The notes: generated by a model not told the origin, from the letters alone. A stretch of DNA of 41,010 nt from a virus (IMGVR_UViG_3300017910_000924:1-41010); one strand, 5' to 3'; positions 1,173 through 34,337 are shown, counted from the first letter of the stretch. Numbers and translations: made by a program.

Positions 1173-1402
1173 TGAAATTTAAAAAGGTTGAAGGACACAG
1201 TAATTTAGTTAGAGATAGCAGAACAGGTGCTGTTTTAAATACAAATAAAACGGAGATAGAACGAGCGAGAAAGATTAAACAAGTAAATGAAGAGAGACAA
1301 CAACATATTAGTTCGTTGACACATGAAGTTAAAGAATTAAAGAAAGATATGTCTCAAATAAAAGATTTACTTTTTCGTTTAGTAGAGGATAATCATGAGT
1401 AA
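1172..1402 (+). CDS. Conserved small hypothetical protein of T4-like phages (C-terminal coiled coil)
   Basis: TAATG stop/start overlap with the upstream gene; VEGHSNLVRD..TGAVLN motif, then a heptad-like segment. Confidence 0.7.
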   Translation: MKFKKVEGHSNLVRDSRTGAVLNTNKTEIERARKIKQVNEERQQHISSLTHEVKELKKDMSQIKDLLFRLVEDNHE

Positions 1403-2753
1403 TGTACAAGTAGTCAATCTGGCTGATAATATTAATGCAGCGATACTAAAAATAAATCAAAACTTTGCTGGTGTTGATGCTGGTGATATCGGTGGTGGAC
1501 TAGATTCTGCAGAAGTTAGGGCTCTCATTACTGGTTCCGATTTGGACATGGGTGGTAATAAGGTTCTCTTTGGTAATGTTTACTCTACTATTGCTGATTT
1601 ACCAGATGCAGGAACATATCATGGTATGTTTGCACATGTACATAACACGGGTAAAGGTTACTTCGCACATGCTGGTCAGTGGGTAGAATTGGGAGGTGTA
1701 GACTCTTCTCAAATTAGTAATATCGTAAATAATATTCTTGACTCTGACTACTTTATTACAGTCATTAATCAAGACTATCTAAATCAGTTCACAATCAATA
1801 CCGACGTAAGTTACTTAGATTCGGACATTTCTGCTAATGCATCTGCGATCTTCCAGTTAACTTCTCGTATTGACGCGACTGACTCTGGCGTCCTAGTATT
1901 ATCGCAAGCATTAACTCAAACGCAGGCTGACCTAGATGGATTAGTACTTGATGGGTTTGATTCGGATGCTCTTGTTTCTGCAGTAACATCTGCAAACTCT
2001 CAAGTTATTTCTAGAATCGAAGCAACAGAAAGTGATTTGACTATATTTTCAGGGGTTCTTGATTCAGTCGAGGCACAATTAATTATTATCGATAGTGACC
2101 TTGGTGTTCGCATCGACGCAGAAGCAAACGCAAGAAGTCAATTGTCTTCGACGGTAACTGCGCAGGGTGGTACAATAACAACCCTAAGTCAGGAAGTTAC
2201 TGCATTAGACAATGCTGTGTTCATTCGAGATAGTGATGGTAACATAACATCAACCGCATTAGCATCTGCTGAAAATGCATTGACAAACCAAATCACTCAG
2301 GTTGACGGTCGTATCACTACTGTTGAGGCGGGACTAACTACTGACCTACAAGCATATGCAGACGGTGTCGGTGCATCGGTGACTAATACGTTAGAGGCTT
2401 ACGTTGATGCCGCAACCGGAAACACGACTGCGTCATGGAACTTAGACCTAACTGCTGGAGATACAAACAACCCATACGTTGCTGGCATAAAGTTTGGTAA
2501 CGATGGTGCCTCGGCAGACTTTGTTCTTTCTGCAGACACTTTCCAGTTAGTCACACCAACCGATTCAGATGGTACGGGAGGCATTAGTCCGTTTACAGTT
2601 ACCGCGAATGGTGTTGAACTTTCAAACGCGACAGTTACTGGCGCGATAGATGTCACTACAACAGATTCAGATGGGTCTATGAATATTACAGGTAATCTCA
2701 TTACCATAAGTGATGGCGCTGGAAATGTAAGAGTAAAGTTAGGTAAAATCTAA
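1395..2753 (+). CDS. Tail fibre/tail-tip protein: coiled-coil stalk with a C-terminus resembling the lambda gpJ/DUF1983 region
   Basis: SD gagg; LPDAGTYHGMFAHVH..GKGYFAH motif; heptad-rich middle; C-terminal YVAGI.FG......FVLSADTF.LV...PFTV...RVKLGKI. Confidence 0.6.
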   Translation: MSNVQVVNLADNINAAILKINQNFAGVDAGDIGGGLDSAEVRALITGSDLDMGGNKVLFGNVYSTIADLPDAGTYHGMFAHVHNTGKGYFAHAGQWVELGGVDSSQISNIVNNILDSDYFITVINQDYLNQFTINTDVSYLDSDISANASAIFQLTSRIDATDSGVLVLSQALTQTQADLDGLVLDGFDSDALVSAVTSANSQVISRIEATESDLTIFSGVLDSVEAQLIIIDSDLGVRIDAEANARSQLSSTVTAQGGTITTLSQEVTALDNAVFIRDSDGNITSTALASAENALTNQITQVDGRITTVEAGLTTDLQAYADGVGASVTNTLEAYVDAATGNTTASWNLDLTAGDTNNPYVAGIKFGNDGASADFVLSADTFQLVTPTDSDGTGGISPFTVTANGVELSNATVTGAIDVTTTDSDGSMNITGNLITISDGAGNVRVKLGKI

Positions 2754-3052
2754 TGAGTTACGGTCTATATATTTCAGACGGTGTTAATGGCGGAGTTATT
2801 ACTAATTCGAATACTGTTCTCAACGAAGAGTTTTCATATTCTCTTACTGCAACATTAGCCCCTAGTGCAAGTACTAGTGTACAGTTTTCAGGTGCAGGCA
2901 ATTCCGCATTGATAGGAGTCACCTTTAGTAATGCATCTCCAGAACAGAATGATTTATCTATTTCTAGAAATTCGTCAACTGATACATTGACTATTACTAA
3001 CAGTGGGGCAAGCGCTGTAACTTTTACTGCAGATTTTTTTAGGTTTGGATAA
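2753..3052 (+). CDS. Small tail-tip accessory protein
   Basis: TAATG coupling; N-terminal MSYGL.I.DG motif of the kind that follows J-like tail-tip genes; beta-rich composition. Confidence 0.5.
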   Translation: MSYGLYISDGVNGGVITNSNTVLNEEFSYSLTATLAPSASTSVQFSGAGNSALIGVTFSNASPEQNDLSISRNSSTDTLTITNSGASAVTFTADFFRFG

Positions 3053-3777
3053 TGGCAGATTACGGATTAACAGTTTATAACAACAACGGCGGACTAATGT
3101 TTGATACTCGCCGTGATATGAATAGTTACGTTGTTACCGAAGTGGGTACAGGCACCGCACCTAGTGATTTCAGTTTAGCTGATGGAGATTTCTTGTTCGT
3201 TGCTATTCCTTCTGGACAAGCGAATACGATGTCTCAATATGTAATATTTCTTGGACTGAATACCGGCACCTTGTCTGTAGAGTTTAGAGGATATCCTATC
3301 GACACTGACGGAGCTGTTGTTAGTCTCACATTAGATTATTTCGTAGTAAAACATGCGAAGAATGTTACTTCTACAAATACACACGGTTTAGTTGTGTATA
3401 ATGAAGATCAAACAGTACAGTTTGATAGTCGATCTGTAAAGACAGGAAACCATTTTACTATTACATCATATACTCAACCAAAATCAATAATTGGCTGGAC
3501 TCCTACTACTGGAGGAGTTGACTTAGGAGACCCTTCAGATTATTGGGAAATAGGAACTTGGACAAGCGGTTCATTTAGTTTTGAGGGTAAATACGTTAGA
3601 GGAATAAGACTTACTGCAGATCCTTTGTACTATAATTATAATAAGGTGACCAGTTCAAGTGGTGGCGGAGGCTTTGGCGAAGGCTTTGGTGGAGGATACG
3701 GAGGTGGATCCACAACAACCACCGAAACATATTATAGAGACAATCCTAGCATGATATTGTCTGCCGAATTAGTTTAA
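3052..3777 (+). CDS. Tail-tip accessory / putative receptor-binding protein
   Basis: TAATG coupling; internal duplication YGLTVYNNNGGLMFD / HGLVVYNEDQTVQFD; Gly-rich loop near the C-terminus. Confidence 0.5.
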   Translation: MADYGLTVYNNNGGLMFDTRRDMNSYVVTEVGTGTAPSDFSLADGDFLFVAIPSGQANTMSQYVIFLGLNTGTLSVEFRGYPIDTDGAVVSLTLDYFVVKHAKNVTSTNTHGLVVYNEDQTVQFDSRSVKTGNHFTITSYTQPKSIIGWTPTTGGVDLGDPSDYWEIGTWTSGSFSFEGKYVRGIRLTADPLYYNYNKVTSSSGGGGFGEGFGGGYGGGSTTTTETYYRDNPSMILSAELV

Positions 3778-3787
3778 AGAGGAAAAA

Positions 3788-4225
3788 ATGATTTACTATA
3801 TCGCGACTATTGAAGATAGTCAAATAAAAACATTAAAATTATCAAGTGGTGATAATGAGCCTGAAGGTGTACGTGAAGATGGCAATACTATTGTACACAT
3901 TGATTTTCCAATAGAAGACCGCTTTGAATTCATCAATACTCATTTTTGGGAAGGTGAATGGAAACAGCGTGAGCCTTCTCCAAACAGACATGCTGAATGG
4001 ATGGACGGAGAGTGGGTTTGGAATCACGAAGACCTAATGAACGATGTTAGGCTTGTAAGAAATAAATTGCTGTTTGATTGCGATTGGACTCAGTTGCCAG
4101 ATGTCGATCTAACAGAAGAACAAAAGGATTCTTGGACAACATATCGCCAATCCCTGAGAGATCTTTCATTCGTATCTTCTAACATTACTTGTCTAGATGA
4201 TGTGTCTTGGCCAGTGTCTCCATAG
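3788..4225 (+). CDS. Tail fibre assembly chaperone (Tfa-like)
   Basis: C-terminal R..RN.LL..CDWTQLPD.....W..YRQ.LRD....WP..P signature; SD agagg. Confidence 0.8.
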   Translation: MIYYIATIEDSQIKTLKLSSGDNEPEGVREDGNTIVHIDFPIEDRFEFINTHFWEGEWKQREPSPNRHAEWMDGEWVWNHEDLMNDVRLVRNKLLFDCDWTQLPDVDLTEEQKDSWTTYRQSLRDLSFVSSNITCLDDVSWPVSP

Positions 4226-4348: not shown

Positions 4349-7300
4349 GTGTCAGCATCGAGCATACCACTAAAAATTAAAAATTCGAATGGTGACCTAC
4401 AGGAATTCACTCCGGCGCAGGAAAACTATCTTGCGTACGCAGTGGGTCAAGTACTAGCAGAGGCCTCTGCTGGTGATGTCGGCGATATCAGTCTAACAGA
4501 CGGTAACTCTATCGGTTCATTTACGGACGCGTACTATAATGAGCCAGCAGGAACTCACCCTCTGTCCAATCTCACAACTACCACAACTACTACTACGTTG
4601 AAGCAAGTTGCTGGTCCAGCTGATGAATCTGGTGCTGATTTTACCCGTCCTGTTGGTTACTATGAAAACGGACCAAATCCAGGCTTCTACGAAATGGTAG
4701 ATGCAGATTTGGATAATCTTGCGGGTCGTGTTATAGGCAACATGGCTCAGAACAATTATACTGGTACATTTAAGCTGGCGAAAACATCGCCAGGCGCAGA
4801 CTACTCTGTCTTCATTGAAAACGCATTCTCTGATACTCACGGTGATGGCACCGTCGAGAACTATAGCATTTATCAGCGCGTTACGATGCCTGCAGTTGAT
4901 GCGCATCGCCCAGTTACTATTTGTTATGATGATGATGCGTCAGTAGCAGTCAACCTTTCGGACGTTTCTTCACTTAATCTATATCAAGGTCAGGACACTG
5001 TAATTACTGCGGCTCCTACTGATTCTAACGGTGACGCAATTACTTGGTCGTTCGAAGAAGTTAAAAGTTCGCTCTTCTTTGCAGCAGATGATTATATGAA
5101 CGTATATGATCCAAACACTCTGCAACTGTTACATTCCCTTGGTCCTTTCCAGTCTAATTTGGGAACTCAGATCGGTTCTATGGCAGTTGGAGGAGGAAAA
5201 TATGCAGTTGGTGATGGAATACAAACGAACTCTCAGATTTTAGTTTATGATATAAACGATCTAACTGCAACACCAACTACGATTACAGATAGCAGCGATA
5301 ATGGTTTCGGTAAATCAATTGCTCTGTCAGATGATAAACTGTATGTTGGAATGTGGAAGAGCAATAATCGTGCTGGCGGTGTACTTGTATATGATCTTAA
5401 TGATTTAAGTGCCTCTCCTACAGAGATTACTTCTCCATATCCATTTCCGAATTATGGCCGATTCGGCGATAACAATCTCGAAGTTGTAGGCAACAAAGTC
5501 TTCATTAGTCAAGTGCGAGGACAAAATGGTGAAGGTGTGATTTATGTTTATGATAATAGCGATTTGTCTGCAACACCTATCGAAGTACGCGCTCCTGGCT
5601 CAGATTCATTCAATGGTGATGGTTTCGGTTGGGAAGGAAGGTTCGCTGTATCTGATACGCATTTAATTGTTGGTCAGATTTATGGCGGCAGTATGGCACA
5701 ACGTAGCACCCCGACACATTCAGGTCTTGTACATATCTATGATATCAGCGACCTTTCTGCAGCACCGAAAACAATTCAACCATTCGATGCAACAGCAAAC
5801 GGTTACTTCGGATACACGGTAGAAATTTCAAACGATTACATTGTTGTAGGAGCGAAGAATAACAATACTTCCATCGAAAGTTTTTACACGTATAACATGA
5901 GTGACATTTCTGGTGCGCCGCACTACGATCAAACATACAAACCAACAGTCACTAAAATAGAATCACCAGAAACTGCTGGCCAGCGTTTCGGTAAATCTAT
6001 CAGAATAATTGAAAACCAGATTTTCGTTTCCGTTGAACTGGGTGACACTAATGGAACAAACACTGGTTCAGTTTATGTCTATGATGCAACAGATTTAACT
6101 GCAACACCACAAGAGATCGTCGGAAGTCGCGATTATGCTAATTTCGGAAACTCTATGGTGGCATACAAAGCACCATCTGCAGCATCCAACGGTGTCACTG
6201 TAACACAATCTGATAACGTGTTCACTGTGACTCCTGGCTCATCTGCAGCATCTTTCAAATTAAGATTTACTGGTGATGAAACAAAGGACGTTGATTTCAC
6301 AGTATCCGCTGCACAGAAGTTTGACGGTTTCAAAGAGATGACCGACGCACAGATCAAGTATTCACTTGGTCAACGAGTCAAGTCTCTACGTGCAACTGCA
6401 GGTGCGATCGGTTCTTACCAATTACGATCTTCTGCACAAGGCGCACCTATCATGCCAGGCACTTGGTTGTCTGCAGGTACTGCGACTAACACACGTCGCT
6501 CGCTAGTTGATGTAGGGTATACACGTACTCGTAACTCATCGTATGTTCGTTCTCGTGTTTCCGCATATACTCGTGATCGTATTTCAACATTTACACGCAA
6601 TAGTATAGCCTCATTTGCTCGTACATTTACGGGTGATTATACGGGCGAATACTCACGTGGATTTACGGGTAATTATTCACGTGACTTTGTTGGTAACTAT
6701 TCACGTACTCGTACTTCTACGTTTGATGGAACATATACACGCGGTCGCCTATCAACATTTGCAGCAGACTACGTACGTAGCCGCGTATCAACATATGACG
6801 GAACTTTCTCACGTAACCGCCTCTCAACATACTCTCGTGAGTCAACTCGTTCACGTAACTCGGCATACACTCAAGTGTTTTCACGTACACGTGCTAGTGC
6901 ATTTATTGCGGACTACACTCGCGCACGTACATCCACATATGACGGAACATTCGCTCGCGACCGTATTTCTTCATACATAGACACTTATACACGCACACGT
7001 CCATCAACTTTTGCGGGTAATTTTACAACAACTCGTACATCTACATACGATGGTACTTTCTCTCGCGTACGTAATTCTTCATATACTGGAACGTATTCTC
7101 GTGATCGTGTTTCCTCTTATGCAGGAACTTACACACGTGAAAGAGCTTCTACATACACTGGAGAATACACTCGCGCACGTACGTCAACATTTGATGGTAC
7201 TTTCTCACAATTACGTACCTCTTCGTTTAGTGACACATACGCACGTACGCGTACGTCATCATATGACGGTACCTATGCAAGAACACGTACTTCTACGTAT

Positions 7301-10300
7301 GACGGCACTTATGCTCGCACACGTGTTTCTTCATACGTAGACACTTATACACGCACACGTAATTCAACGTTCTCTGCGTCATACACTCGTGAGCGTCCAT
7401 CATCGTATTCTGGTGAATTCACACGTAACCGTACGTCAACATTTGATGGGACTTTCTCACGTACTCGTAACTCATCATACTCAGGTACTTTTACGCGCAC
7501 TCGTGTATCGTCTTACATAGACACATACTCACGTGCTCGTATCTCATCATATTCTGGTACCTTTGCACGTAATCGTATCTCATCATATAGCGATACTTAC
7601 GCACGTACACGTAACTCTATATACACTGGACAATATACTCGTACACGTACATCGACGTTTGACGGCACTTTCTCCCGTGTACGTAACTCTGCATATGCTG
7701 CAGACTACACGCGCACACGTACTTCAGCGTACGGTGCAACATACTCAAGAGTCCGTGCGTCTGCGTATACGCGCACACGTCTAACTGCATTTACTAACAG
7801 TTATTCAGGTACTTTCAGCCGCGCACGTGTTTCAGTATACACTCGTGATCGTGTAACAAACTTTGCTGGTATCTTTGCACGTACTCGTACATCGGCATAT
7901 ACACGTGGCCGTGTTTCTACTTACTCAGGAACATTTGCACGTGCACGTACTTCGGTATACTCAGCGGCCTACTCACGTACTCGTGTATCATCTTATACAG
8001 GTACTTACGCAGGAACTTTCTCACGTACTCGTATCTCCGCATATTCCGATACATACTCCCGTTCACGTAACTCCGTGTACACTCGCACATCTGCAAGAAC
8101 ACGTAACTCATCTTACTCTGCAGACTATACTCGTACACGCGTAACAGACTACACACGTAATCGTGTCACCAACTTTGCTGGTGTCTTCTCACGTGCACGT
8201 GTTTCAACATATGCTCGCACACGTACTTCTGTATACTCTGCGGCCTATGCACGTGATCGCGTTTCTTCGTATGTTCGTGCGCAAAATCTTGCACAATTTA
8301 CTGGTAACTTTGCAGGAAACTACAGTCGTAACTTTGCAGGAAACTATTCACGTAACTTTGTAGGAAATTACTCTCGTGGTTTCGCTGGTAACTATGTTGG
8401 CAACTATGCTCGAGTTTCTACTCGTGTATCTGCACGTACCCGTTACTCAGCTTATGCACGTACGTCAACACGTACTCGTGCATCTGCATACACACGTGAT
8501 CGTGTCACTAACTTTGCTGGTAATTTTGTCGGTAACTATTCTCGTAACTTTATAGGAGATTACGTAGGAAACTATAGCCGCACATTCGTAGGCGACTACA
8601 CAGGTAATTACACTGGCAACTATGCAAGAACATTTACTGGAAACTTTGCTGGTAACTATGCACGTGCTTTTGCTGGTAACTACGCAGGTAACTATACAGG
8701 AAACTACACAACAACATTTACTGGTAACTTCGTAGGAAACTATGCTCGCAACTTTGTAGGTGACTACGTTGGAAATTTTGTCGGTAACTACGCACGTGCC
8801 TTTGCTGGTAACTTCGCTGGAAACTACGTAGGCGAATATACTCGTGCGAGACCATCGAGTTTCGTAGGTAATTATGCCCGAGGGTTTGTTGGTAATTACG
8901 TTGGAAACTTTGTCGGTAACTATGCACGTGCCTTCGCAGGCAACTTTGCTGGTAATTATACTGGTAACTATGCAACAACATTTACCGGAAACTTTGTCGG
9001 TAACTATGCTCGTGGATTCGCAGGTAACTTTGCTGGTAACTACGTAGGTGAATACGCTAGAACATCGACGCGTACATCAACTCGTGTACTACCATATACG
9101 CGTTCACTGAGCTTCACTGGTGACTTCGTAGGAAACTATGCACGTAATTATTCTGCTAACTATACTCGTACACCAGCATACACTCGTACACTATATTACG
9201 CAGGTGACTTCGTAGGAAACTATGCACGTACACGTACTGGTTCATATGAAGGCAACTACGCTCGTACACGTGTTACAAACTTTGCTGGTAACTTTACTGG
9301 TAACTATACTCGCGGTGTAACATATACTGGTAACTACAACCGTAACGTAACATATACTGGTAATTACGCCCGTAGTGTTGCATATACGCGTACTAGAACA
9401 GTAACATCAACTCAGGCAGCAACATTTACACGTACATCTACACGTACATCAACCACTTCTGGTACTACAGTAAATGATGCATATGTAGCGAACTACTTTG
9501 TTGTAACAACTGGTTGGGTTCGTGATAGTGAGGGTGGAGTAACAATAAACCAAGTTTACATAGATGGCATGGTTGTAGCTCAAGCTACCGGAGCATCTGT
9601 TACTCAAATCACTGCCGGTGGTGTAACATATTATCGTGGATCACATAGACAAAACTTCGGTGCATTTGTATCTCGATACGGTGTAACCTACCAAGCAGGT
9701 GGTGGTAGTTTTGCAGGCAACTTCGTAGGAAACTACACAGGAACACAAAGCTTCAGTACAAACTATACAGGTAACTATGCTCGTAACGTTGCATATACTC
9801 GTAACCGTGTGGCTGCAGTCGCTTATACAAGAAATAGAGCAGCGACTTTAACCTATACACGTGATCGTGTTACTAACTTTGCAGGCGACTTCGTAGGAAA
9901 CTATGCACGTAATCGTGCATTCTCTTATGAGGGTAATTATGCACGTACTTCAACGCGCACGTCTACAAACACAGGTTACTATACTCGTACGTTAAGCTAT
10001 ACTGGTAATTATGCACGAGCGTTTACACGTAATCGTACTCAGGTTTCAACTCGTACTGATACTTACACACGAACTGGTTCTTATGTCGGTGATTTTGTAG
10101 GTAATTATGCTCGTACTTCTACACGTACATCAACGCGTACTCGTTACTCAGCTTATGCAAGAACTCGCGTAACCAACTTTGTTGGTGACTTCTCACGTGT
10201 TTCTACACGTACGTCAACACGTACTCGTTACTCAGCATACGCTCGTACACGTGCAACAGATTATACTCGTACACGTAACAGCGCATACTCAAGAACTAGC

Positions 10301-13300
10301 GCAGTAACATATACAGGTAATTACGCTCGTACTTCTACACGTACGTCAACACGTACTCGTTACTCAGCATATGCAAGAACTCGTGCGACAAACTATACAC
10401 GTACACGAAACTCGGCTTATGCTCGTACACGTATCACAGACTACGTAGGTAACTTCACACGTGTCTCGACTCGTACGTCAACTCGTACCCGTTACAGTGC
10501 ATACTCAAGAACACGTATCACAGACTACGTAGGTGACTTTACACGCGTTTCAACACGAAACTCGACTCGTAACCGTGGTTCTGCTTACGCACGTACATCG
10601 ACTCGTACACGTGGCTCAGCATACACTCGTGACCGCGTAACCAACTTCGCAGGTAACTTCGTCGGAAACTACAGCCGTAACTTCGCTGGAGATTTCGTTG
10701 GAAACTACTCTCGTGCATTCGTTGGTGAGTACACTGGTAACTATACTGGTGAGTACACTCGTACTTCAACACGCACACGTTACTCTGCGTACGCACGTAC
10801 ACGTCTATCGACATTCGTAGGACAGTATGCGAACAGCTATACACGTCATCGCATCACGTCTTACTCACGCGTAGCTACTGCATACCCACACACAAGTGCT
10901 TACAACGATTTGTCTAACAAGTTGTGGGATGCCGGATTTATGAATAACTGGTCTGCGCCTAATACAGGTTCAGCTACAGGATATCCGACAGCAAGTCATG
11001 GTTTCCACCAGAATGGTGACGGCAACTCCATCATTTCTATCCCAGACACACCAAGAGGTGCTGGTGACGTTTGGGATATTTCTAATCAAGATGCCGAATC
11101 AAACGCGGACGGTGGTTGGAATAGTTCGTGGATGTCAGTAGATACAACTAAGACATATCGCTACTCAGTTTGGGTACGACGTAATACTATCGGTAATGGC
11201 CATACATATCTTGGTTCACGCGCATATAATTCAGGTGGTACTAATGTTGGTATGATTCCTGTTCATGGTCCAAATAACCACGGTACAGCAAATACAAATA
11301 CTTATTTTGTATCTAGTTTATGGAATTCGTTGACAGGAACAACAGCAAACACTGCTGGTGAGTGGTTCTTGTTAGTTGGTCACGTACATCCAGCAGATTA
11401 TACTGGTGGTGTAGATACAACTTCAGGTATCTATAACGAATCTGGAGAAAAAGTTGCTAACGTTAACTATGATATGAAGTGGGTGTCAGGCACTGCTTGG
11501 CAGCTACATCGTGCATACTTGTACTACTCAACAGACACTAGCACTAACCAACAGTTCTGGGAACCACGTGTTGATGATATGTCTCACGGTAGTGCGCCAA
11601 GCATTGACTTGCTACGTCACGGAACTCCATCATACTCACGCGTATTCACTGGTAACTACACTGGCAACTACTCACGCGGATTTGTTGGAAACTACTCGCG
11701 TAACTTCTCTGGTCAGTACAGCCGTAACTTTGCTGGTGACTTTGCAGGTAACTACGTAGGTAACTTCGCTGGAAACTATGTGGGCAACTACTCACGCGGT
11801 TTCGCAGGCGAATACACTGGTAATTACTCACGCAACTTCGCAGGTGAATATGTAGGCAACTATTCACGTGGATTCGCGGGAGAATATACAGGCGAATTCT
11901 CTGGCACTTACTCACGTAACTTCGCCGGTGATTATGTCGGTAATTACTCACGCAACTTTGCTGGTGAATACACCGGAACATACACTAACACATTCACTGG
12001 CAACTATTCACGTGACTTCGTCGGTAATTATGCTCGTGACTTTGCTGGTAACTTCGTAGGCGACTATGCAAGAACATTTACTGGTGAGTACACTGGTACA
12101 TATACACGCGACTTCGTCGGTAACTTTGCGGGTAACTACTCACGTGGATTCGCCGGTGAATATGCAGGAAATTACAGTCGCGACTTTGGTGGCAACTATG
12201 TAGGTAACTACAGCCGCGGATTTGCTGGTGAGTACACTGGAACGTTTACTGGTCCAAATCTACCTTTCCAAATGTCTAGATATGGATCATCTGGTGATCC
12301 AACACGTTTGATCGTAGGATCAACTACTCAAGCAGACACTATTGCAAGTGGGTTTACCAACCTTATTGTCAATCAAAATGAAAGATTGGGTAGAATCGAG
12401 TTTGTAGGAACAAATGGTAATGTTGCTGTAATTGAAGTTCAAGGAATGAGTGAGATATCTTCTATTCAAAGTAAGGTGGCTGAAGGCGTACCTTACATTG
12501 ACATTGGAGTATCTGGAACTGTTTCAAATTCAACTCTTGCAGCTGCACCAACAACACCTACTGATATTACTGAAGTCAGATTCCTATACAATCATACTGG
12601 AAACGATCAATATATCGGATCTGTTTACTCAACAAGCACAGGCTTCGTAGGCAACTACACTGGTGCATATTCACGCGGTTTCGCTGGTGATTATGTTGGT
12701 AATTACTCTCGTGAATTTGCAGGTGAGTATACTGGTGCTTTCACTCGTGCGTTCTCTGGTCAGTATGTCGGTAACTATAGCCGTGATTTCGTTGGCGAAT
12801 ACACAGGTAACTTCTCTCGTGACTTCGCTGGTGAGTACACTGGAACGTTTACTGGTCCAACAGAAAAGGTCTATCAGTCTGAGATTGGTATACGTGATGC
12901 AGGAACTTTGATCTCGTTTGGTGTTGGTAATGATGCACTAGCAGTTAAACAAGATTTTCAGGATCAAGTTACTGCGTCCGGTGTTAATAAAATAGAAATT
13001 TACTCTGGCACTAGGTTGGTGTATAGTGTAGAAACTACTAATGGCGAAGACCTATCTTGGTCTAATTACAATGTCCAAAGCAATCTAAACACCGGATACG
13101 GTATGAGTGTCACTAATGGTCATACCACCAAATTAGGATTATTGAGCTCAAGTTATGCTGTAAGGTCTGTTTATGGTGTTACGAATGATACTAATCACTT
13201 CTCATTTGATATGATTAAAGCATATGGTACTAGTGGATTGATTTCGACCGTTAACTACACTAGCAACCTAACAACAAACTTGGTAGATATACCTAACGGA

Positions 13301-16003
13301 ACAGCAGGTTTCGTAGGTAACTACACTGGTGCATACACTCGTAACATTACAGACTCGTTTGTAGGTAACTACAGCCGTAACTTTGTCGGTGAATATGCAG
13401 GTAACTATGCACGTGGGTTTACTGGTGAATATACTGGTACATTCTCGCGTGACTTTGGTGGCGAATACACCGGAACATATTCCCGTGACTTTGTTGGTGA
13501 ATACGTAGGAAACTACTCTCGCGACTTTGCTGGTGAGTACACTGGAACATTTACTGGTCCACTAGGAAGATCTTATGTAGAATTCGATTCTTCTAATCAG
13601 GATGGTGTTACTGTTCCTTCCGCTCACATAGGATCGGATGATTATACTATTGAAGCTTGGGTATATCCAACGACTTCTGGTGGCACTCGAATGATTGCTC
13701 GTAAAGATACTGGTGGTGTAGGTCATGGTAGTTGGGAGATATCTTTAGTTAATGGCAACAAGGTACGATATGAAGTTAAAGTTTATGGATCATCTTCAAG
13801 TACTACTGGTGTTCGTCAGCTTGATTCCAACACTACTTTGCCGGTTAACCAGTGGTCGCATATTGCTATCGTAGGTAATGCGGTCGGTGGTTATTCTCCT
13901 ACACAATATCAAGGTGGGCAAAATAGAATAAACAGAATGTGGATTAATGGTCAATGGCAAGGCGATTCAATGTCTGATGCATCTAGGCCGCCTGGAAGCA
14001 CTAAATTCCATATTATGAATTTGAGTTCTAGCTCGGGCACAATTCAACTTGGTTATCAAAATGTTAGTGGTAATACATCCCTGCATTTTGATGGTAAGAT
14101 CTCAAACTTTAGAATTGTCAAGAATGCGGTTGCGTATCCTACAACAGAACATTCTTTCTACAATTCAGTATCAGATCCTGCTTCTGATTCGACATTTACT
14201 CCAAACATTAACTTGTCAACCTCAGTTTCTGGTTTCCAGATGTTAGCACTTGCTGCGGGTAATGAGAATATTATCTCGAACCCTAATAACCTATCACTAA
14301 TTTCAGAGGTGGGTTTCGTAGGCAACTACACTGGTGCATACACTCGTAACATTACAGACGCATATACTGGCGCATACACTCGAAACTTTACTGGTGACTA
14401 CACTGGAGCATACTCTCGTGGATTCTCAGGACAGTACACCGGAACATTCTCGCGTGGATTTACTGGCGACTTCGTCAATAACTTCTCTCGTGACTTTGTT
14501 GGTCAGTATACAGGTAACTATTCACGCGGATTCGCTGGTGAATATACTGGAACGTTTACTGGACCAGTATTCCCAATTGTTGAATTGGTCAATCAAGGTG
14601 TTTTTGCAAATAACCCATCTAATAGTGGTCAGTTCCCAGCTGGGTGGCAAAATTTGAACTACCCAAATACTGAGCCACAGATTACAACAGCCTTGGGAGA
14701 TGGCTCTAAACGATTGCATATCAAACAATGGTCGTTTACTCCTAGAGTTAATAACCAGAGAGTTATGAAGCAGACAATAAATGGGCTTACTCCTGGCCGA
14801 GAATATGAGTTGAAGATTTTTGCTTACGATACAAGCCAAGTATCAGATGGTGCTGGTGGAACTATAGAAAACCCTCCAGCATTAGAACTTGTACACGGGA
14901 GTACATCTGAATTTGTGGGCGAGGCGTTGACGCCAAGAAATCATAACTTCCCACCATATAATTCGGACAGTGTTACATTTATTGCATCAGCAACCAGCGC
15001 CACACTATATGTTTTGAGAGCTGTGAGTGTTGTTAGCGATATCTCATTGAAGGCTACTCAAGTATTAACTGGCTTTGCAGGTAACTACGTAGGTAACTAT
15101 AGTCGTGACTTTGTTGGTGATTACACAGGTGACTTCTCTCGTGACTTCGCTGGTGAGTACACTGGTAACTACAGTCGTTCGTTCACTGGAGAGTACACCG
15201 GAACATTCTCATCGTACTTCACAGGAAACTACACGGGTAATTACTCACGTACGTTTGCTGGTGAGTATACTGGAACGTACACTGGTCCACAGCAAACTGC
15301 ATATCAGTCTGATGTTGGTGTAGTGAACGGTTTCGGTTCTTCTAACGGCATATACTTCAGTACAGCCACTAATTCTCAATCGGTTAGAGATACCGTTATG
15401 AGCGCAATTACTGGAGATACGGCAAAGATTGAGTTCTGTTTTGGACCAAATACATTCTTCAGCATAGAATCGCCGTCACACCTAAACTCCGGTATTCTTC
15501 AGACACATAATTATTACTTTAATAATTCTTCTAGTGGATATGGTATTACGTTCTCAAATGGAAATAACCTTATTGTTACTTACGACGGAAGTAAGTCGGT
15601 TAATGCACAGGCATATGTTCTTTCTAAATCGTTTGATACCGTTAAGACATATGATGTGAACGGTAACTTACTACAAAGCGTAGAACTAACAAGCAACTTG
15701 ACATCTAACTTGGTTAATGTCCCAGGCGCAGTTGGTTATGTCGGTAACTACTCACGTGTCCGTGTATCAGCATACTCACGTCTACGTACGTCTGCTTATA
15801 CTGGCACTTACTCACGTGATCGAGTGTCTACATATGTCGGTGACTTTATTGGTGACTACGCTCGAAACTTTGCTGGTAATTACACACGTTCGTTCGAAGG
15901 TAACTATGCAAGATCGTTCGTAGGTAACTATGTCGGTGCAACGGTTTCGGACAGTCTAACAAACGTTACTGAAACATATACATTATATGTGAGGGTTGCA
16001 TAA
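4349..16003 (+). CDS. Giant (3884 aa) virion fibre/filament-like protein: base domain, beta-propeller, two complementary tetrapeptide-repeat arms, tip domain and six inserted domains (one LamG-like)
   Basis: Uninterrupted 11.65-kb ORF behind a late promoter, among tail/fibre genes; [YF]xRx / RxSx / [YF]xGx repeats; FG-GAP-like blades; YTIEAWVYP...QWSHIAIV...FDGKISNFRIVK LamG motif at about 13562-14314. Confidence 0.8.
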   Translation: MSASSIPLKIKNSNGDLQEFTPAQENYLAYAVGQVLAEASAGDVGDISLTDGNSIGSFTDAYYNEPAGTHPLSNLTTTTTTTTLKQVAGPADESGADFTRPVGYYENGPNPGFYEMVDADLDNLAGRVIGNMAQNNYTGTFKLAKTSPGADYSVFIENAFSDTHGDGTVENYSIYQRVTMPAVDAHRPVTICYDDDASVAVNLSDVSSLNLYQGQDTVITAAPTDSNGDAITWSFEEVKSSLFFAADDYMNVYDPNTLQLLHSLGPFQSNLGTQIGSMAVGGGKYAVGDGIQTNSQILVYDINDLTATPTTITDSSDNGFGKSIALSDDKLYVGMWKSNNRAGGVLVYDLNDLSASPTEITSPYPFPNYGRFGDNNLEVVGNKVFISQVRGQNGEGVIYVYDNSDLSATPIEVRAPGSDSFNGDGFGWEGRFAVSDTHLIVGQIYGGSMAQRSTPTHSGLVHIYDISDLSAAPKTIQPFDATANGYFGYTVEISNDYIVVGAKNNNTSIESFYTYNMSDISGAPHYDQTYKPTVTKIESPETAGQRFGKSIRIIENQIFVSVELGDTNGTNTGSVYVYDATDLTATPQEIVGSRDYANFGNSMVAYKAPSAASNGVTVTQSDNVFTVTPGSSAASFKLRFTGDETKDVDFTVSAAQKFDGFKEMTDAQIKYSLGQRVKSLRATAGAIGSYQLRSSAQGAPIMPGTWLSAGTATNTRRSLVDVGYTRTRNSSYVRSRVSAYTRDRISTFTRNSIASFARTFTGDYTGEYSRGFTGNYSRDFVGNYSRTRTSTFDGTYTRGRLSTFAADYVRSRVSTYDGTFSRNRLSTYSRESTRSRNSAYTQVFSRTRASAFIADYTRARTSTYDGTFARDRISSYIDTYTRTRPSTFAGNFTTTRTSTYDGTFSRVRNSSYTGTYSRDRVSSYAGTYTRERASTYTGEYTRARTSTFDGTFSQLRTSSFSDTYARTRTSSYDGTYARTRTSTYDGTYARTRVSSYVDTYTRTRNSTFSASYTRERPSSYSGEFTRNRTSTFDGTFSRTRNSSYSGTFTRTRVSSYIDTYSRARISSYSGTFARNRISSYSDTYARTRNSIYTGQYTRTRTSTFDGTFSRVRNSAYAADYTRTRTSAYGATYSRVRASAYTRTRLTAFTNSYSGTFSRARVSVYTRDRVTNFAGIFARTRTSAYTRGRVSTYSGTFARARTSVYSAAYSRTRVSSYTGTYAGTFSRTRISAYSDTYSRSRNSVYTRTSARTRNSSYSADYTRTRVTDYTRNRVTNFAGVFSRARVSTYARTRTSVYSAAYARDRVSSYVRAQNLAQFTGNFAGNYSRNFAGNYSRNFVGNYSRGFAGNYVGNYARVSTRVSARTRYSAYARTSTRTRASAYTRDRVTNFAGNFVGNYSRNFIGDYVGNYSRTFVGDYTGNYTGNYARTFTGNFAGNYARAFAGNYAGNYTGNYTTTFTGNFVGNYARNFVGDYVGNFVGNYARAFAGNFAGNYVGEYTRARPSSFVGNYARGFVGNYVGNFVGNYARAFAGNFAGNYTGNYATTFTGNFVGNYARGFAGNFAGNYVGEYARTSTRTSTRVLPYTRSLSFTGDFVGNYARNYSANYTRTPAYTRTLYYAGDFVGNYARTRTGSYEGNYARTRVTNFAGNFTGNYTRGVTYTGNYNRNVTYTGNYARSVAYTRTRTVTSTQAATFTRTSTRTSTTSGTTVNDAYVANYFVVTTGWVRDSEGGVTINQVYIDGMVVAQATGASVTQITAGGVTYYRGSHRQNFGAFVSRYGVTYQAGGGSFAGNFVGNYTGTQSFSTNYTGNYARNVAYTRNRVAAVAYTRNRAATLTYTRDRVTNFAGDFVGNYARNRAFSYEGNYARTSTRTSTNTGYYTRTLSYTGNYARAFTRNRTQVSTRTDTYTRTGSYVGDFVGNYARTSTRTSTRTRYSAYARTRVTNFVGDFSRVSTRTSTRTRYSAYARTRATDYTRTRNSAYSRTSAVTYTGNYARTSTRTSTRTRYSAYARTRATNYTRTRNSAYARTRITDYVGNFTRVSTRTSTRTRYSAYSRTRITDYVGDFTRVSTRNSTRNRGSAYARTSTRTRGSAYTRDRVTNFAGNFVGNYSRNFAGDFVGNYSRAFVGEYTGNYTGEYTRTSTRTRYSAYARTRLSTFVGQYANSYTRHRITSYSRVATAYPHTSAYNDLSNKLWDAGFMNNWSAPNTGSATGYPTASHGFHQNGDGNSIISIPDTPRGAGDVWDISNQDAESNADGGWNSSWMSVDTTKTYRYSVWVRRNTIGNGHTYLGSRAYNSGGTNVGMIPVHGPNNHGTANTNTYFVSSLWNSLTGTTANTAGEWFLLVGHVHPADYTGGVDTTSGIYNESGEKVANVNYDMKWVSGTAWQLHRAYLYYSTDTSTNQQFWEPRVDDMSHGSAPSIDLLRHGTPSYSRVFTGNYTGNYSRGFVGNYSRNFSGQYSRNFAGDFAGNYVGNFAGNYVGNYSRGFAGEYTGNYSRNFAGEYVGNYSRGFAGEYTGEFSGTYSRNFAGDYVGNYSRNFAGEYTGTYTNTFTGNYSRDFVGNYARDFAGNFVGDYARTFTGEYTGTYTRDFVGNFAGNYSRGFAGEYAGNYSRDFGGNYVGNYSRGFAGEYTGTFTGPNLPFQMSRYGSSGDPTRLIVGSTTQADTIASGFTNLIVNQNERLGRIEFVGTNGNVAVIEVQGMSEISSIQSKVAEGVPYIDIGVSGTVSNSTLAAAPTTPTDITEVRFLYNHTGNDQYIGSVYSTSTGFVGNYTGAYSRGFAGDYVGNYSREFAGEYTGAFTRAFSGQYVGNYSRDFVGEYTGNFSRDFAGEYTGTFTGPTEKVYQSEIGIRDAGTLISFGVGNDALAVKQDFQDQVTASGVNKIEIYSGTRLVYSVETTNGEDLSWSNYNVQSNLNTGYGMSVTNGHTTKLGLLSSSYAVRSVYGVTNDTNHFSFDMIKAYGTSGLISTVNYTSNLTTNLVDIPNGTAGFVGNYTGAYTRNITDSFVGNYSRNFVGEYAGNYARGFTGEYTGTFSRDFGGEYTGTYSRDFVGEYVGNYSRDFAGEYTGTFTGPLGRSYVEFDSSNQDGVTVPSAHIGSDDYTIEAWVYPTTSGGTRMIARKDTGGVGHGSWEISLVNGNKVRYEVKVYGSSSSTTGVRQLDSNTTLPVNQWSHIAIVGNAVGGYSPTQYQGGQNRINRMWINGQWQGDSMSDASRPPGSTKFHIMNLSSSSGTIQLGYQNVSGNTSLHFDGKISNFRIVKNAVAYPTTEHSFYNSVSDPASDSTFTPNINLSTSVSGFQMLALAAGNENIISNPNNLSLISEVGFVGNYTGAYTRNITDAYTGAYTRNFTGDYTGAYSRGFSGQYTGTFSRGFTGDFVNNFSRDFVGQYTGNYSRGFAGEYTGTFTGPVFPIVELVNQGVFANNPSNSGQFPAGWQNLNYPNTEPQITTALGDGSKRLHIKQWSFTPRVNNQRVMKQTINGLTPGREYELKIFAYDTSQVSDGAGGTIENPPALELVHGSTSEFVGEALTPRNHNFPPYNSDSVTFIASATSATLYVLRAVSVVSDISLKATQVLTGFAGNYVGNYSRDFVGDYTGDFSRDFAGEYTGNYSRSFTGEYTGTFSSYFTGNYTGNYSRTFAGEYTGTYTGPQQTAYQSDVGVVNGFGSSNGIYFSTATNSQSVRDTVMSAITGDTAKIEFCFGPNTFFSIESPSHLNSGILQTHNYYFNNSSSGYGITFSNGNNLIVTYDGSKSVNAQAYVLSKSFDTVKTYDVNGNLLQSVELTSNLTSNLVNVPGAVGYVGNYSRVRVSAYSRLRTSAYTGTYSRDRVSTYVGDFIGDYARNFAGNYTRSFEGNYARSFVGNYVGATVSDSLTNVTETYTLYVRVA
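6518..9448 (+). repeat. Coding repeat, outgoing arm (about 977 aa) with 12-nt / 4-aa periodicity
   Basis: Words YTRT RNSS YVRS RVSA ... in continuous register, broken only by QNLAQ and eight dipeptide shifts near the tip. Confidence 0.9.
9710..15928 (+). repeat. Coding repeat, returning arm (about 972 aa after removing six inserts)
   Basis: Words FAGN FVGN YSRN ...; inserts at about 10874-11632, 12257-12643, 12860-13309, 13562-14314, 14567-15073 and 15290-15736. Confidence 0.9.
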
Positions 16004-16064: not shown

Positions 16065-16106
16065 ACTATATACATTTGAATTGAACTGAACTCTTTGGAG
16101 ATATTG

Positions 16107-16568
16107 ATGAGTTATAAAAGATGGATGGATAATGCATTCTGGGAAACAGAACAGAAAAACGAATTAAACTGTATCCTAGAACTTGAAGATGATGTCGGTC
16201 GTGTTACGCGGCAACAAATGTTTTTACGTCGTTTTGAAAAGAATGGCAATGAAAACGAACTGTTTAATGAAGTAGTTGATGCGCTAGGTGAAGCAAGAAT
16301 TGATGAGGAAACTGAGGCACGTGTCGTTCGTAAGAAGGCAGAGGCCGAAGAATCTAAGATTCGTGAGGATGAACACAACAAAGCGCGTAAACTAGAAAAA
16401 CTGTTCAACTACAAACTAGAAGCGTTTGAGGTTGAAGAGATTAAAAACTCTAAGAACCGAAAGTTGAAGGCAAAATTGCGTCGTGCGAAATCTAAGATCG
16501 AAGTAGATATGTACTCGATCATGATCTTACAAGACCAACTAGAGGCCGAGACAGATGGAAAAGAGTAA
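16107..16568 (+). CDS. Hypothetical charged helical protein (possible assembly chaperone)
   Basis: ATG at 16107 has SD ggag, a better start than 16095; E/K/R-rich; overlaps the next gene. Confidence 0.6.
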   Translation: MSYKRWMDNAFWETEQKNELNCILELEDDVGRVTRQQMFLRRFEKNGNENELFNEVVDALGEARIDEETEARVVRKKAEAEESKIREDEHNKARKLEKLFNYKLEAFEVEEIKNSKNRKLKAKLRRAKSKIEVDMYSIMILQDQLEAETDGKE

Positions 16569-17283
16569 AGGATTTATAATTGTTGCGTCTAAGAATCGCA
16601 ACTTTTATTTGTATGCAATCAACCTAGCAGAATCGATTCGAGACTACTATGAGGATTGTAAGATCTGTCTAGTGACAGAAGAACGCTTTATTGATGCACG
16701 TGGTGAAGATGTTGCGGATGATATTATCTTCTGCGATGACCACTACCGTGCGAAGTTATGGGGTATGGCTAAGTCACCATATGACATAACTATGTACATT
16801 GACGCTGATATGGAAGTAGAGCATGAAGATATTGTCAATGTATGGGATGAACTAAAGGACCATGATATGGTCTTTACTGCGTTGACAGACGACCGTAGTT
16901 ACATCTATGCGGAACGTGACTTTGATACGCCTCAAGGTAAAGCGAAGTTCACATTGTGCGGTGCGGTATGTCTATATGATATGAGCAAACCAATTGTTCG
17001 TGAGTTCATGGATGATTGGTGGGACTTAACGTATCGTCAAATGAACGATACTTGGTGGCCAGAAGGGTATGCAGACAGTCTCAAGTCTTGGGACCAGTTC
17101 TCACTCTGGTGGCTGACCAACAAAGAAGAAAAGTACAAGGATCTCAAGGTTGGCATTTTTGATGACGACTTGAGATGGAACTATTATAACGCTCTTAACT
17201 GGGCGAGAACAAAACCTGAGACAGGACCAGTGATTATTCGTCACTTCTCTGCGGGTTTAAACAAGGATACTCCAATCATATGA
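16555..17283 (+). CDS. Glycosyltransferase, GT-A fold (GT8-like)
   Basis: N-terminal GFIIVA...A.NLAESIR; K...M..SPYD.T.YIDAD (DxD motif); WDQFSL; RWNY; IIRHF. Confidence 0.8.
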   Translation: MEKSKGFIIVASKNRNFYLYAINLAESIRDYYEDCKICLVTEERFIDARGEDVADDIIFCDDHYRAKLWGMAKSPYDITMYIDADMEVEHEDIVNVWDELKDHDMVFTALTDDRSYIYAERDFDTPQGKAKFTLCGAVCLYDMSKPIVREFMDDWWDLTYRQMNDTWWPEGYADSLKSWDQFSLWWLTNKEEKYKDLKVGIFDDDLRWNYYNALNWARTKPETGPVIIRHFSAGLNKDTPII

Positions 17284-17987
17284 CACAGGTAAACGATCAA
17301 TATCTAAAGCACGTGGAAGTTAATAACCCAGAATTGCTTGAGATCCTAGATCAGTATGCAAAACTGCATACGATGGAAGGGTTTAAAGAAAACTGTCATT
17401 TGACTGCAGCACAGCAGCTTCGTCAACGTTCGTACTTCGTTGGTGAGAAGTACATGCAACAAGTTGTAAACCAGGGCCCGAGACATGATGGGTTTCCTGA
17501 GTCTCTAGTTGCATACAACTTTAAGTTGTCAGATAAGTCTCACCAGATGTTCGAACCAAATGCGGACGCGATTTTCAAGCGCGATATGACACATCACCTA
17601 CGTGATCTAAACGACAAGATGATGAACTTCTTGTCTGTCAAGCACAATGCACTCGCAGCAGTATACCCGCCAGGCGGCTTTATTTCTTGGCATAATAATG
17701 CGAATGCGCCAGGCTTTAATCTAATCTTCTCTTACTCAGAAGACGGCTCTGGTTACTTTGATTACATCCATCCAGAGACTAAAGAAGTCATTCGTTGTCA
17801 AGACAAGCCAGGCACTTGGACATGTAAGGCTGCGTACTTTGGTCACTATGACGAACCAGAAAAACTAATGTATCACGCTGCTTCAACCGAAGATTGGCGA
17901 GTTACTGTATCATACGTCTTCGATTGGTCAGAAACGTCTGAAGACTTCCGTGAAATGGTTCTAGAAGACATTTCTGCAGAATATTAA
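17280..17987 (+). CDS. Putative Fe(II)/2-oxoglutarate oxygenase-like (double-stranded beta-helix) protein
   Basis: ATGA overlap with the GT gene; YPPGGFISWHNN...YHAA....RVTVS pattern (H-x-N...H...R, where H-x-D is canonical). Confidence 0.55.
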   Translation: MTQVNDQYLKHVEVNNPELLEILDQYAKLHTMEGFKENCHLTAAQQLRQRSYFVGEKYMQQVVNQGPRHDGFPESLVAYNFKLSDKSHQMFEPNADAIFKRDMTHHLRDLNDKMMNFLSVKHNALAAVYPPGGFISWHNNANAPGFNLIFSYSEDGSGYFDYIHPETKEVIRCQDKPGTWTCKAAYFGHYDEPEKLMYHAASTEDWRVTVSYVFDWSETSEDFREMVLEDISAEY

Positions 17988-18050: not shown

Positions 18051-18407
18051 ATGGCGCATTACGAAGATTTTACAATTGATCAAGGTGCAGATCTAGCTCT
18101 ACAATTAGAACTAGTGAACCCAGATGGATCAACAAAAGATCTTACAGGGTTTTCAGCTGCAGCTAAAATGAAAAAAAACTTCAATAGCCTTGCAGCTGAT
18201 ACTGTTGATTTTACTGCTGCTGTCAATGAACCCCCAACCAGTGGTATAGTTACATTATCCCTTACCAATCTTCAGACTGACGAACTATCCACACGCGGTC
18301 GTTATGTTTATGATGTTGAAATCAATTATACCGATAGTGATGGCAACAATATCATAGAGAGAGTACTAGAAGGTAAAATAAAAGTAAACCCTTCAGTGAC
18401 AAGGTAA
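18051..18407 (+). CDS. Virion structural protein (BppU-N-like beta-sandwich)
   Basis: IDQGAD......DLTG.SA.A.MKK...G.V.LSL...QT..L...RYVYDVEI....RVLEG.I.V.P.VT motif common in T4-like marine phages. Confidence 0.65.
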   Translation: MAHYEDFTIDQGADLALQLELVNPDGSTKDLTGFSAAAKMKKNFNSLAADTVDFTAAVNEPPTSGIVTLSLTNLQTDELSTRGRYVYDVEINYTDSDGNNIIERVLEGKIKVNPSVTR

Positions 18408-28954: not shown

Positions 28955-28957
28955 GAT

Positions 28958-32598: not shown

Positions 32599-32610
32599 AT
32601 ATTCTTTTAT

Positions 32611-32618
32611 TATAAATA
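32611..32618 (+). promoter_or_regulatory. T4-type late promoter
   Basis: Exact TATAAATA before gp18. Confidence 0.85.
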
Positions 32619-32682
32619 GATACATTGAAATAATTATACCGTATTATGATAACTTATTATACCTTAACAAAAGGACACTATT

Positions 32683-34326: not shown

Positions 34327-34337
34327 GGGGAATAATC

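What the first reader, a model, noticed from the sequence alone, without database searches (positions are those of the whole stretch)
6518..15928. A protein 'stem-loop': two ~975-residue arms that are complementary in antiparallel register
Seen: splitting the repeats into 4-residue words and reading the second arm backwards against the first gives a consistent match at word position 3: Arg faces Gly/Ser/Asp, Thr faces Gly, and I found no Arg facing Arg in the stretches checked. At position 1, Arg or Ser faces Phe/Tyr. At the outer end, N-arm YTRT RNSS YVRS RVSA YTRD RIST FTRN SIAS FART FTGD YTGE YSRG FTGN YSRD FVGN YSRT lies against the reversed C-arm FVGN YARS FEGN YTRS FAGN YARN FIGD YVGD RVST YSRD YTGT RTSA YSRL RVSA YSRV YVGN. 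Where one arm switches from R-rich to G-rich, the other switches the opposite way. Hand counts of words between landmarks are identical on both arms (16, 18, 21, 21, 18, 52), and arm lengths are about 977 and 972 aa once inserts are removed. Inference: the chain folds back around the tip at 9449-9709 into one enormous beta-hairpin ribbon, about 320-330 nm if fully extended at ~0.33 nm per residue. It may oligomerise, zipped by Arg-over-Gly packing and cation-pi pairs. I know of no described phage fibre built on such a long-range complementarity code.
Basis: partly seen in the sequence, partly recalled or inferred. Interest (0 to 1): 0.97.

Follow-up and report, generated by a model that had tools for sequence, protein, structure and literature searches.

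The report
Branched self-pairing giant phage hairpin fibre
A 3,884-residue protein of a marine T4-like phage has two 967-residue arms that match each other residue by residue in reverse order, so the chain very likely runs out up to about 320 nm and zips back along itself, carrying six separate domains looped out of the return strand like beads, a likely host-catching fibre of a build that my literature searches did not find described.

Summary
Confirmed. ORF 4349-16003 lies in the tail-fibre module of a T4-like phage (near relative: Phage C48C1). Residues 724-1690 pair with 3861-1799 in antiparallel order for 967 residues with no small gap once six inserts are removed; Arg faces Arg in 1 of 252 Arg pairs. 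The same gap-free diagonal holds in 14 homologues of 850-2059 aa, each arm fitting its own partner best. Close relatives gain and lose 44, 14 and 28 residues at mirror sites. All 253 Arg lie on one strand face. A short relative's AlphaFold model closes start and end into one MABP-like beta-prism base; the stalk itself was not confidently modelled, and oligomer state is untested. This scan noted the family before on other DNA. Added here: six domains (one LamG) branch from the return strand, five at one Gly-Gly site at 72/84-pair spacing; relatives lack or swap them without losing register; a conserved downstream trio includes a glycosyltransferase-like and an oxygenase-like gene. Against: point compensation is rare, and some relatives carry 12-residue bulges.

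The parts
4349..16003 (+). Whole fibre gene, 3884 aa
   Evidence: relatives of 3893 aa (P0002) and 3347 aa (C48C1)
4349..4927 (+). Base domain, repeats 1 and 2 and start of repeat 3 (aa 1-193); predicted MABP-like beta-prism
   Evidence: internal repeats (repeat 2 vs 3 E 2.5e-7, repeat 1 vs 2 E 5e-4); model and fold match of relative P0034
4928..6319 (+). Insert in the base with FG-GAP repeats (likely beta-propeller); absent in C48C1, exchanged in P0002 and P0004
   Evidence: Pfam FG-GAP_2 E 1.2e-15
6320..6517 (+). Rest of base repeat 3 (aa 658-723), leading into the outgoing strand
6518..9418 (+). Outgoing arm, aa 724-1690, 967 residues, no insert
9419..9742 (+). Tip, aa 1691-1798; non-repeat core 9449-9709; variable between relatives
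   Evidence: no family hit of weight
9743..10882 (+). Return arm, distal segment (aa 1799-2178), pairs with aa 1690-1311
   Evidence: rank 1 of 602 placements
10883..11626 (+). Branch domain 1, 248 aa, after pair 587; strand parity flips on both arms here
   Evidence: relatives in L001, L003, L103, L106; no hit
11627..12253 (+). Return arm segment aa 2427-2635
   Evidence: rank 1 of 774 placements
12254..12640 (+). Branch domain 2, 129 aa, after pair 378; absent in C48C1 and P0002, where an ordinary repeat word stands
12857..13306 (+). Branch domain 3, 150 aa, after pair 306; paralogue of branch 6
   Evidence: 29% identity, E 1.6e-11
13559..14311 (+). Branch domain 4, 251 aa, after pair 222; LamG / concanavalin A-like lectin fold
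   Evidence: Pfam Laminin_G_3 E 1.2e-15, above cut-off
14564..15070 (+). Branch domain 5, 169 aa, after pair 138; weak fibronectin-III likeness only
   Evidence: Pfam fn3 E 0.0099, below cut-off; PDB E 0.003 over 30 residues
15287..15733 (+). Branch domain 6, 149 aa, after pair 66; a related strain lacks it with register kept
   Evidence: joint 15280 to 15743 with 15 letters between in run X12
15734..15931 (+). Return arm, proximal segment (aa 3796-3861), pairs with aa 789-724
   Evidence: rank 1 of 919 placements
15932..16003 (+). C-terminal strand that is predicted to complete base repeat 3
   Evidence: resembles the second hairpin strand of repeat 2; pLDDT 86-97 in the relative's model; inside the MABP match range 40-420
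16095..16568 (+). Conserved 157-aa protein, no family; candidate chaperone (inference)
   Evidence: found in 79 of 80 loci
16555..17283 (+). Glycosyltransferase-like protein with invariant DxD
   Evidence: D83, D85 invariant in 33 sequences; weak Pfam GT2 match in 17 of 33, best E 0.0023
17280..17987 (+). 2-oxoglutarate/Fe(II) oxygenase-like protein, HxN...H...R
   Evidence: H138, N140, H199, R207 invariant in 110 sequences; only 1 of 110 hits Pfam 2OG-FeII_Oxy; Atlas leads at 0.87
18051..18407 (+). LtfC-like fibre attachment protein
   Evidence: PHROG 3304 E 7.6e-17; in 76 of 80 loci
3788..4225 (+). Tail fibre assembly chaperone-like gene directly upstream
   Evidence: Pfam Phage_tail_APC E 1.2e-15

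Best explanation
The two arms of this protein match in antiparallel order over 967 residues, and the chain very likely folds as one giant beta-hairpin that grows out of a single turn of a small predicted beta-prism base, likely serving as a long host-capture fibre on the phage particle. Shown: the reverse-order match, its conservation through mirror gains and losses, the strict two-residue alternation (Arg, Tyr, Phe, Gly, Ser on one face; Thr, Ala, Asn, Ser, Val, Asp, Glu on the other), and six domains looped out of the return arm. Predicted: the last 23 residues complete the base, clamping both ends together. Inferred: on the Arg/aromatic face each Arg lies over a Gly, Ser or Phe of the partner strand and Tyr meets Tyr, so the order of words sets one best register, as in an RNA stem; five branches leave and re-enter between two glycines of one repeat word, so the ribbon continues past them; tip, LamG and the other beads, at about 22, 46, 73, 101, 125, 194 and 320 nm if fully extended, together with a net stalk charge of +150, would bind acidic cell-surface or exopolymer targets at many points. 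Inferred more weakly: the downstream glycosyltransferase-like and oxygenase-like enzymes modify the Thr/Ser/Asn face, and the 157-aa protein keeps the outgoing arm unpaired until the return arm is made. Whether hairpins bundle is open.
For: Window: 967 gap-free pairs, R:R 1 of 252; score 593 vs shuffles 167 and 228, parallel 182. Homologues, anchored only at conserved base motifs, no gap allowed: in 14 of 14 tested (14 of 18 complete loci; four same-length near-copies left out) R:R is 0-6 against shift means of 6.5-34.7, and 79-93% of Arg pairs face G/S/F against shift maxima of 55-71%. Own-arm score is the highest of its row in 11 of 11 (0.74-0.90; 21). Mirror indels: -44/-44, +14/+14, +28/+28 against P0002, +14/+14, +28/+28 against C48C1, each with 1 R:R (50). 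Coupling peaks at offset 0 with +/-2 shoulders and none beyond +/-4. Base and C-terminal strand confidently modelled in P0034; top four fold matches are MACPF-associated/MVB12 beta-prisms, Z 5.2-6.9, next 2.8. Branch loss with register kept; side loops of 41-53 aa or a 395-aa domain on the return arm in L093, L088, L106. Tail-fibre gene context; repeat gene just upstream of the enzyme pair in 67 of 72 loci.
Against: No confident model of any stalk: single-sequence model pLDDT 31.6; stalk of P0034 under 50. Point compensation is rare: of 71 N-arm Arg gains or losses in aligned pairs only 3 have a matching change opposite, and only 63 of 154 N-arm indels had a same-size mirror partner within 40 pairs (88; repeat alignments split indels). 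L090, L082 and L015 carry uncompensated 12-residue bulges, L081 has gaps on the outgoing arm, and P0076, L084 and P0033 follow the code for only 84-113 pairs. Near the tip Arg often faces Tyr or Ala, so the code loosens. The MABP match is Z under 8 and was made on a relative. No evidence that the protein is in the virion or what it binds; only 1 of 6 branches has a family. Enzyme assignments are motif-level.
Confidence: 0.8

Rival explanations
1. Same pairing, but three hairpins close into a six-stranded antiparallel tube like the T4 gp37 needle (or arms pair between chains), so the fibre is an oligomer with trimeric knobs.
For: Arg also never meets Arg at shift -2 (0 in the window, 0 in 12 pooled proteins), as a second neighbour strand could cause; gp37's needle is six-stranded and trimeric (PMC9659904, one passage); a lone two-stranded ribbon of this length would be floppy (own knowledge).
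Against: The base has its threefold repeat within one chain; shift -2 is also the diagonal neighbour in a plain twisted hairpin; 94 Asp/Glu on one face and 253 Arg on the other make either face awkward to bury.
Confidence: 0.35
2. The paired strands coil into a compact double-stranded beta-helix, with a turn at each Gly, giving a rod far shorter than 320 nm.
For: Gly is 191 of 968 residues on the Arg face; compact solenoids are common fibre shafts (own knowledge); the length would be nearer to usual fibres.
Against: No coupling peak at any cross offset from 6 to 28 (gains 0.011 bits or less vs 0.166 for offsets 0 and +/-2); word lengths of 4, 6, 8, 10, 12, 16 mix freely while only parity is kept; indels of 14 are tolerated.
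Confidence: 0.1
3. The hairpin is real but is not an outer fibre: an Arg/aromatic ribbon that binds nucleic acid or polyphosphate, inside the virion or the cell.
For: 253 Arg, no Lys, net +150, aromatic-rich face.
Against: Gene sits between a fibre chaperone and an LtfC-like gene; lectin-fold, propeller and variable branch and tip domains; distant relatives have Arg-poor or acidic stalks on the same base.
Confidence: 0.05
4. Each arm folds alone as a beta-solenoid, or the match is a by-product of periodic repeats or DNA symmetry.
For: Middle segments are periodic and individually ambiguous.
Against: Own-arm specificity, mirror indels, gap-free diagonals in homologues; no long DNA inverted repeat.
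Confidence: 0.03

Closest known systems
Needle domain of the T4 long tail fibre tip, gp37
   Same: A phage fibre whose strands run antiparallel with a head at the far end (PMC9659904, one passage seen: six-stranded antiparallel needle, three chains, last 215 residues). That each chain runs out and back is recalled, not read.
   Different: There the whole tip is 215 residues; here each arm is 967. No sequence match to any PDB chain; BFVD top hit gp37 is not significant (E 0.022, TM 0.10). No His-metal motifs (1 His in the arms); tetrapeptide pairing code, mirror indels and side branches have no counterpart I found.
MABP (MVB12-associated beta-prism) domains: MVB12B 3tow, Plu-MACPF 2qp2, Mp2Ba1 8b6v, perforin-2/MPEG1 P2 domain 6sb1
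   Same: Predicted base fold (Z 5.2-6.9, rmsd 3.5-5.6, 116-122 residues aligned). MPEG1 has an 'extraordinary elongated' hairpin growing from this domain that binds acidic lipids (PMC6753088, passages).
   Different: 8-11% identity; no MACPF domain; helices added in each repeat; the hairpin is about 2,000 paired residues. Whether it grows from the same turn as in MPEG1 was not tested.
LamG / concanavalin A-like and FG-GAP propeller domains of marine phage virion proteins
   Same: Branch 4 and the base insert are members; the propeller region also matches cyanophage S-TIM5 virion proteins weakly.
   Different: Here they are inserted in a strand or turn rather than strung end to end.

Membership tests
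T4 gp37-type needle fibre | Sequence relationship to gp37 / solved fibre tips | tested here: not met
   no Pfam or PHROG fibre family on the protein; profile A1 has no PDB match to E 1
T4 gp37-type needle fibre | Antiparallel out-and-back strands with distal head | tested here: met
   sequence-level evidence; no structure
T4 gp37-type needle fibre | Homotrimer forming a six-stranded barrel | not tested
T4 gp37-type needle fibre | His-x-His metal sites along the needle (recalled feature) | tested here: not met
   1 His in 1934 arm residues
MABP beta-prism | Three internal repeats forming one domain | tested here: met
   profile comparison of repeats, E 2.5e-7 to 6e-4; confident single-domain base model in P0034
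MABP beta-prism | Structural match to solved MABP domains | tested here: inconclusive
   top four of 48,161 chains, Z 5.2-6.9, next 2.8, but under the tool's Z 8 caution; model of a relative
MABP beta-prism | Binding to acidic lipids | not testable with these tools
   needs a binding assay
Beta-solenoid repeat fibre | Fixed coil length with i to i+n stacking | tested here: not met
   no coupling peak at offsets 6-28; mixed word lengths with only parity kept
GT-A glycosyltransferase (16555-17283) | DxD after a beta-strand and family match | tested here: inconclusive
   DxD invariant; GT2 matches below cut-off in 17 of 33; PDB heparosan synthase E 0.14
2OG-Fe(II) oxygenase (17280-17987) | HxD/E...H triad and 2OG-binding Arg (recalled motif) | tested here: inconclusive
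   HxN...H...R invariant, Asn in place of the acid; 1 of 110 Pfam hit; no PDB match to an oxygenase

The most novel reading that the evidence does not exclude
A natural protein family that builds filaments by RNA-like rules: one chain, a residue pairing code that fixes register over about 1,000 residues, length tuned by mirror indels, and standard junctions where whole domains or side hairpins branch off the return strand; the fibre is finished by its own glycosyltransferase and oxygenase. This member would be a 300-nm programmable, multivalent tether, longer than the phage tail.
Probability: 0.55. Interest if true: 0.95.

Novelty: categorically new. Interest (0 to 1): 0.87.

Why it matters
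If the fold holds, it is a beta-hairpin some twenty times longer than the gp37 needle strands, in which sequence alone predicts every pairing, length and branch position. That makes it a direct test of long-range beta-strand register codes, a ready scaffold for spacing domains along a nanometre ruler, and a candidate answer to how marine myoviruses meet dilute hosts. The function class (phage fibre) is ordinary; the architecture is what I could not match to any family, structure or paper in the searches made. The family is widespread in marine T4-like phages.

Tried and rejected
Single-sequence AlphaFold of L022 gave pLDDT 31.6 and is meaningless. The complex predictor was not available, so no oligomer test exists. 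Foldseek against BFVD gave nothing under E 0.001; the Foldseek PDB library was not run. ESM Atlas gave only unnamed viral clusters at 0.82-0.83 for the fibre. The word-shuffle control loses phase and is weaker than the shift and cross-species controls. One search had a one-residue slip in the boundary of branch 1 for P0002 and C48C1, corrected. In one search, of 52 representatives the gap-free diagonal held in 21, broke at inserts or bulges in 11, and was uninformative or failed in 20 short or distant ones (few Arg, other repeat chemistries). Equal arm length is set by construction and is not counted as evidence. RNA-run contigs (X12) hold a related strain but do not show transcription. No family hit for the tip, base, branches 1, 2, 3, 6 or the 157-aa gene. 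Literature: no paper for C48C1, tetrapeptide hairpin fibres, fold-back fibres, MABP in phage fibres (129) or Arg-rich giant virion proteins; listings showed nothing on this design (titles and abstract starts only; one passage of PMC13055192 and passages of PMC10713586 read). The library lacks most subscription papers, and no supplements were read. Host unknown: the C48C1 record names none.

Full report
Context. The window is the structural module of a T4-like phage: neck, terminase, sheath, tube, portal, protease, scaffold and major capsid genes at 28184-40998. The capsid protein is 98% identical to that of Phage C48C1, OQ984149.1, filed under Kyanoviridae with no host given. The finding lies in ORF 4349-16003 (3884 aa), between a fibre-assembly chaperone gene and an LtfC-like gene; LtfC attaches lateral fibres in DT57C (PMC10713586, passages). 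The seven runs holding half or more of the sampled words are seawater metagenomes of three studies.

Observation. An antiparallel alignment with free gaps pairs residues 724-1690 with 3861-1799: 967 pairs, no small gap, six large gaps on the C-arm. R:G 104, Y:Y 81, R:F 71, R:S 52, R:R 1 of 252; other even shifts give about 20 R:R on average, but shift -2 gives 0. Score 593 against 167 +/- 18, 228 +/- 17 (two shuffles of 100) and 182 for parallel order. Three of seven segments rank first among all placements; four periodic middle segments rank 3-20, but their register is fixed by the flanks and by a motif rule that reproduces five insert lengths exactly. There is no DNA palindrome and no sign of misassembly.

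Out-of-sample test. Of 25 loci, 18 held the whole gene; I tested 14 and left out four same-length near-copies. Anchoring only at the conserved base motifs and allowing no gap, the diagonal runs to the tip: R:R 0-6 against shift means 6.5-34.7; Arg faces G/S/F in 79-93% against at most 55-71% for shifts. In an 11 by 11 swap each N-arm scored best with its own C-arm (0.74-0.90; others 0.31-0.80, the high values between close kin). Some of the 14 are close relatives, so they are not 14 independent events. Against P0002 the arms differ by -44/-44, +14/+14, +28/+28 at mirror places; against C48C1 by +14/+14, +28/+28; each protein has one R:R. Among 52 representatives the gap-free diagonal held in 21, broke at inserts or bulges in 11 and was uninformative or failed in 20 short or distant ones. 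Against a strict code: 12-residue bulges in L090, L082, L015; poor fit in P0076, L084, P0033; only 3 of 71 Arg changes answered opposite and 63 of 154 indels individually mirrored. Length seems to change by blocks, not by point compensation (inference).

Shape. All 253 Arg, 224 Tyr, 191 Gly and 144 Phe lie at one parity; Thr, Ala, Asn, Ser, Val, Asp, Glu at the other; there is no Lys; net charge +150; parity flips once, on both arms, at branch 1. Cross-arm coupling peaks at 0 with shoulders at +/-2 and shows nothing beyond +/-4. This is the pattern of two long antiparallel strands, not of a fixed coil (established knowledge of beta-sheets). Relatives of 392-836 aa carry shorter stalks of other chemistry on the same base. 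A model of P0034 from a 46-sequence alignment is confident for the base and for the last strand, and under 50 for the stalk. The four best of 48,161 solved chains are MABP-type beta-prisms (Z 5.2-6.9; next 2.8), the match spanning residues 40-420. The base has three repeats, and the window's C-terminus resembles the second hairpin strand of repeat 2. So the 3,138 residues between are an outgrowth of one turn (prediction on a relative, transferred by homology). MPEG1 has an elongated hairpin on the same fold that binds acidic lipids (PMC6753088, passages).

Branches. Six domains leave the return arm after pairs 66, 138, 222, 306, 378 and 587. Five sit between two glycines of one word, in the same context and facing the same word on the outgoing arm; spacings 72, 84, 84, 72 are multiples of 12. 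C48C1 and P0002 have a plain word at branch 2; a contig of run X12 has five codons in place of branch 6, which keeps the count of eight residues (my reading of the letters). At the same sites relatives carry other domains. Branch 4 is LamG; 3 and 6 are paralogues; 5 is weakly fn3-like; 1 and 2 have no family. L093 has three 41-residue side loops on the return arm that repeat a motif of its tip, L088 three of 45-53, L106 one of 395; L081 has gaps on the outgoing arm instead. A reason for the one-sidedness could be that the return arm zips as it is made while the outgoing arm must wait unfolded (speculation).

Partner genes. The 157-aa gene, a DxD protein and an HxN...H...R protein follow in this order in 78 of 80 loci (57 distinct glycosyltransferase-like genes), and a repeat gene lies within 3.5 kb upstream in 67 of 72 loci long enough to tell; the loci were found with the DxD protein. 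They are 64-99% identical in the loci, where the fibre base is mostly about 60%. Family support is weak. C48C1 also encodes a nucleotide-sugar epimerase and a UDP-glucose dehydrogenase by its annotation. That these enzymes modify the fibre is inference from position only.

Mechanism and odds. Best reading (0.8): a giant hairpin from a beta-prism base, register set by Arg-over-Gly/Ser/Phe and Tyr-Tyr pairs, serving as a multivalent outer tether. A trimeric six-stranded tube is compatible with the same data (0.35) and untested; a compact double helix (0.1), an internal polyanion binder (0.05) and chance (0.03) are less likely. The 320 nm figure is 967 times 0.33 nm, an upper bound.

Novelty. It works like the gp37 needle in running antiparallel to a distal head (PMC9659904, one passage) but fails sequence and metal-site tests for membership. 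Searches found no description; subscription papers and supplements were not seen. Earlier notes of this scan report the same family, the three-repeat base and the MABP likeness on other genomes; they are not independent evidence. Two word look-ups found no note holding all the words for branches or for the enzyme pair. This member and P0002 are the longest I saw and the most branched.

Noticed in passing
window 19773-24827 +: 1684-aa Ala/Thr/Glu/Asp-rich protein with repeated modules, likely a long helical coiled-coil fibre; C48C1 calls its relative a tail fibre protein.
   Followed up: no
window 24906-28085 +: 1059-aa protein with similar modules and two inserted globular stretches; weak PHROG head-decoration and tail-fibre matches; C48C1's version is much shorter.
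   Followed up: no
L093 1974-9494: Relative with three 41-residue side loops on the return arm that repeat a motif of the tip: a branched fibre with several tips.
   Followed up: partly
L081, L082, L090, L092, L093, L096, L106: Two paralogous fold-back fibre genes in tandem upstream of the enzyme pair.
   Followed up: no
L001 15001-25044 (C48C1 protein, aa about 2010-2160): A 75-residue direct duplication at the end of branch 1; real or an assembly slip.
   Followed up: no
P0032, P0035, P0036, P0057, P0064, P0066, P0069: Distant relatives with the same base but other stalk repeats (Pro/Cys/Thr-rich, acidic, or Arg-Pro-rich) that look mirror-arranged but do not obey the Arg code.
   Followed up: partly
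window 40531-40998 +: Second tail-tube-like gene after the major capsid gene, as in C48C1.
   Followed up: no
L095, L100, L101, L104, L105: The enzyme pair follows other genes, one of which looks like a fibre with a C-terminal chaperone domain (recalled likeness), instead of the repeat gene.
   Followed up: no
window 1395-3777 +: Variable cassette of tail-tip-like and small genes between the conserved upstream gene and the fibre; differs between close relatives.
   Followed up: no
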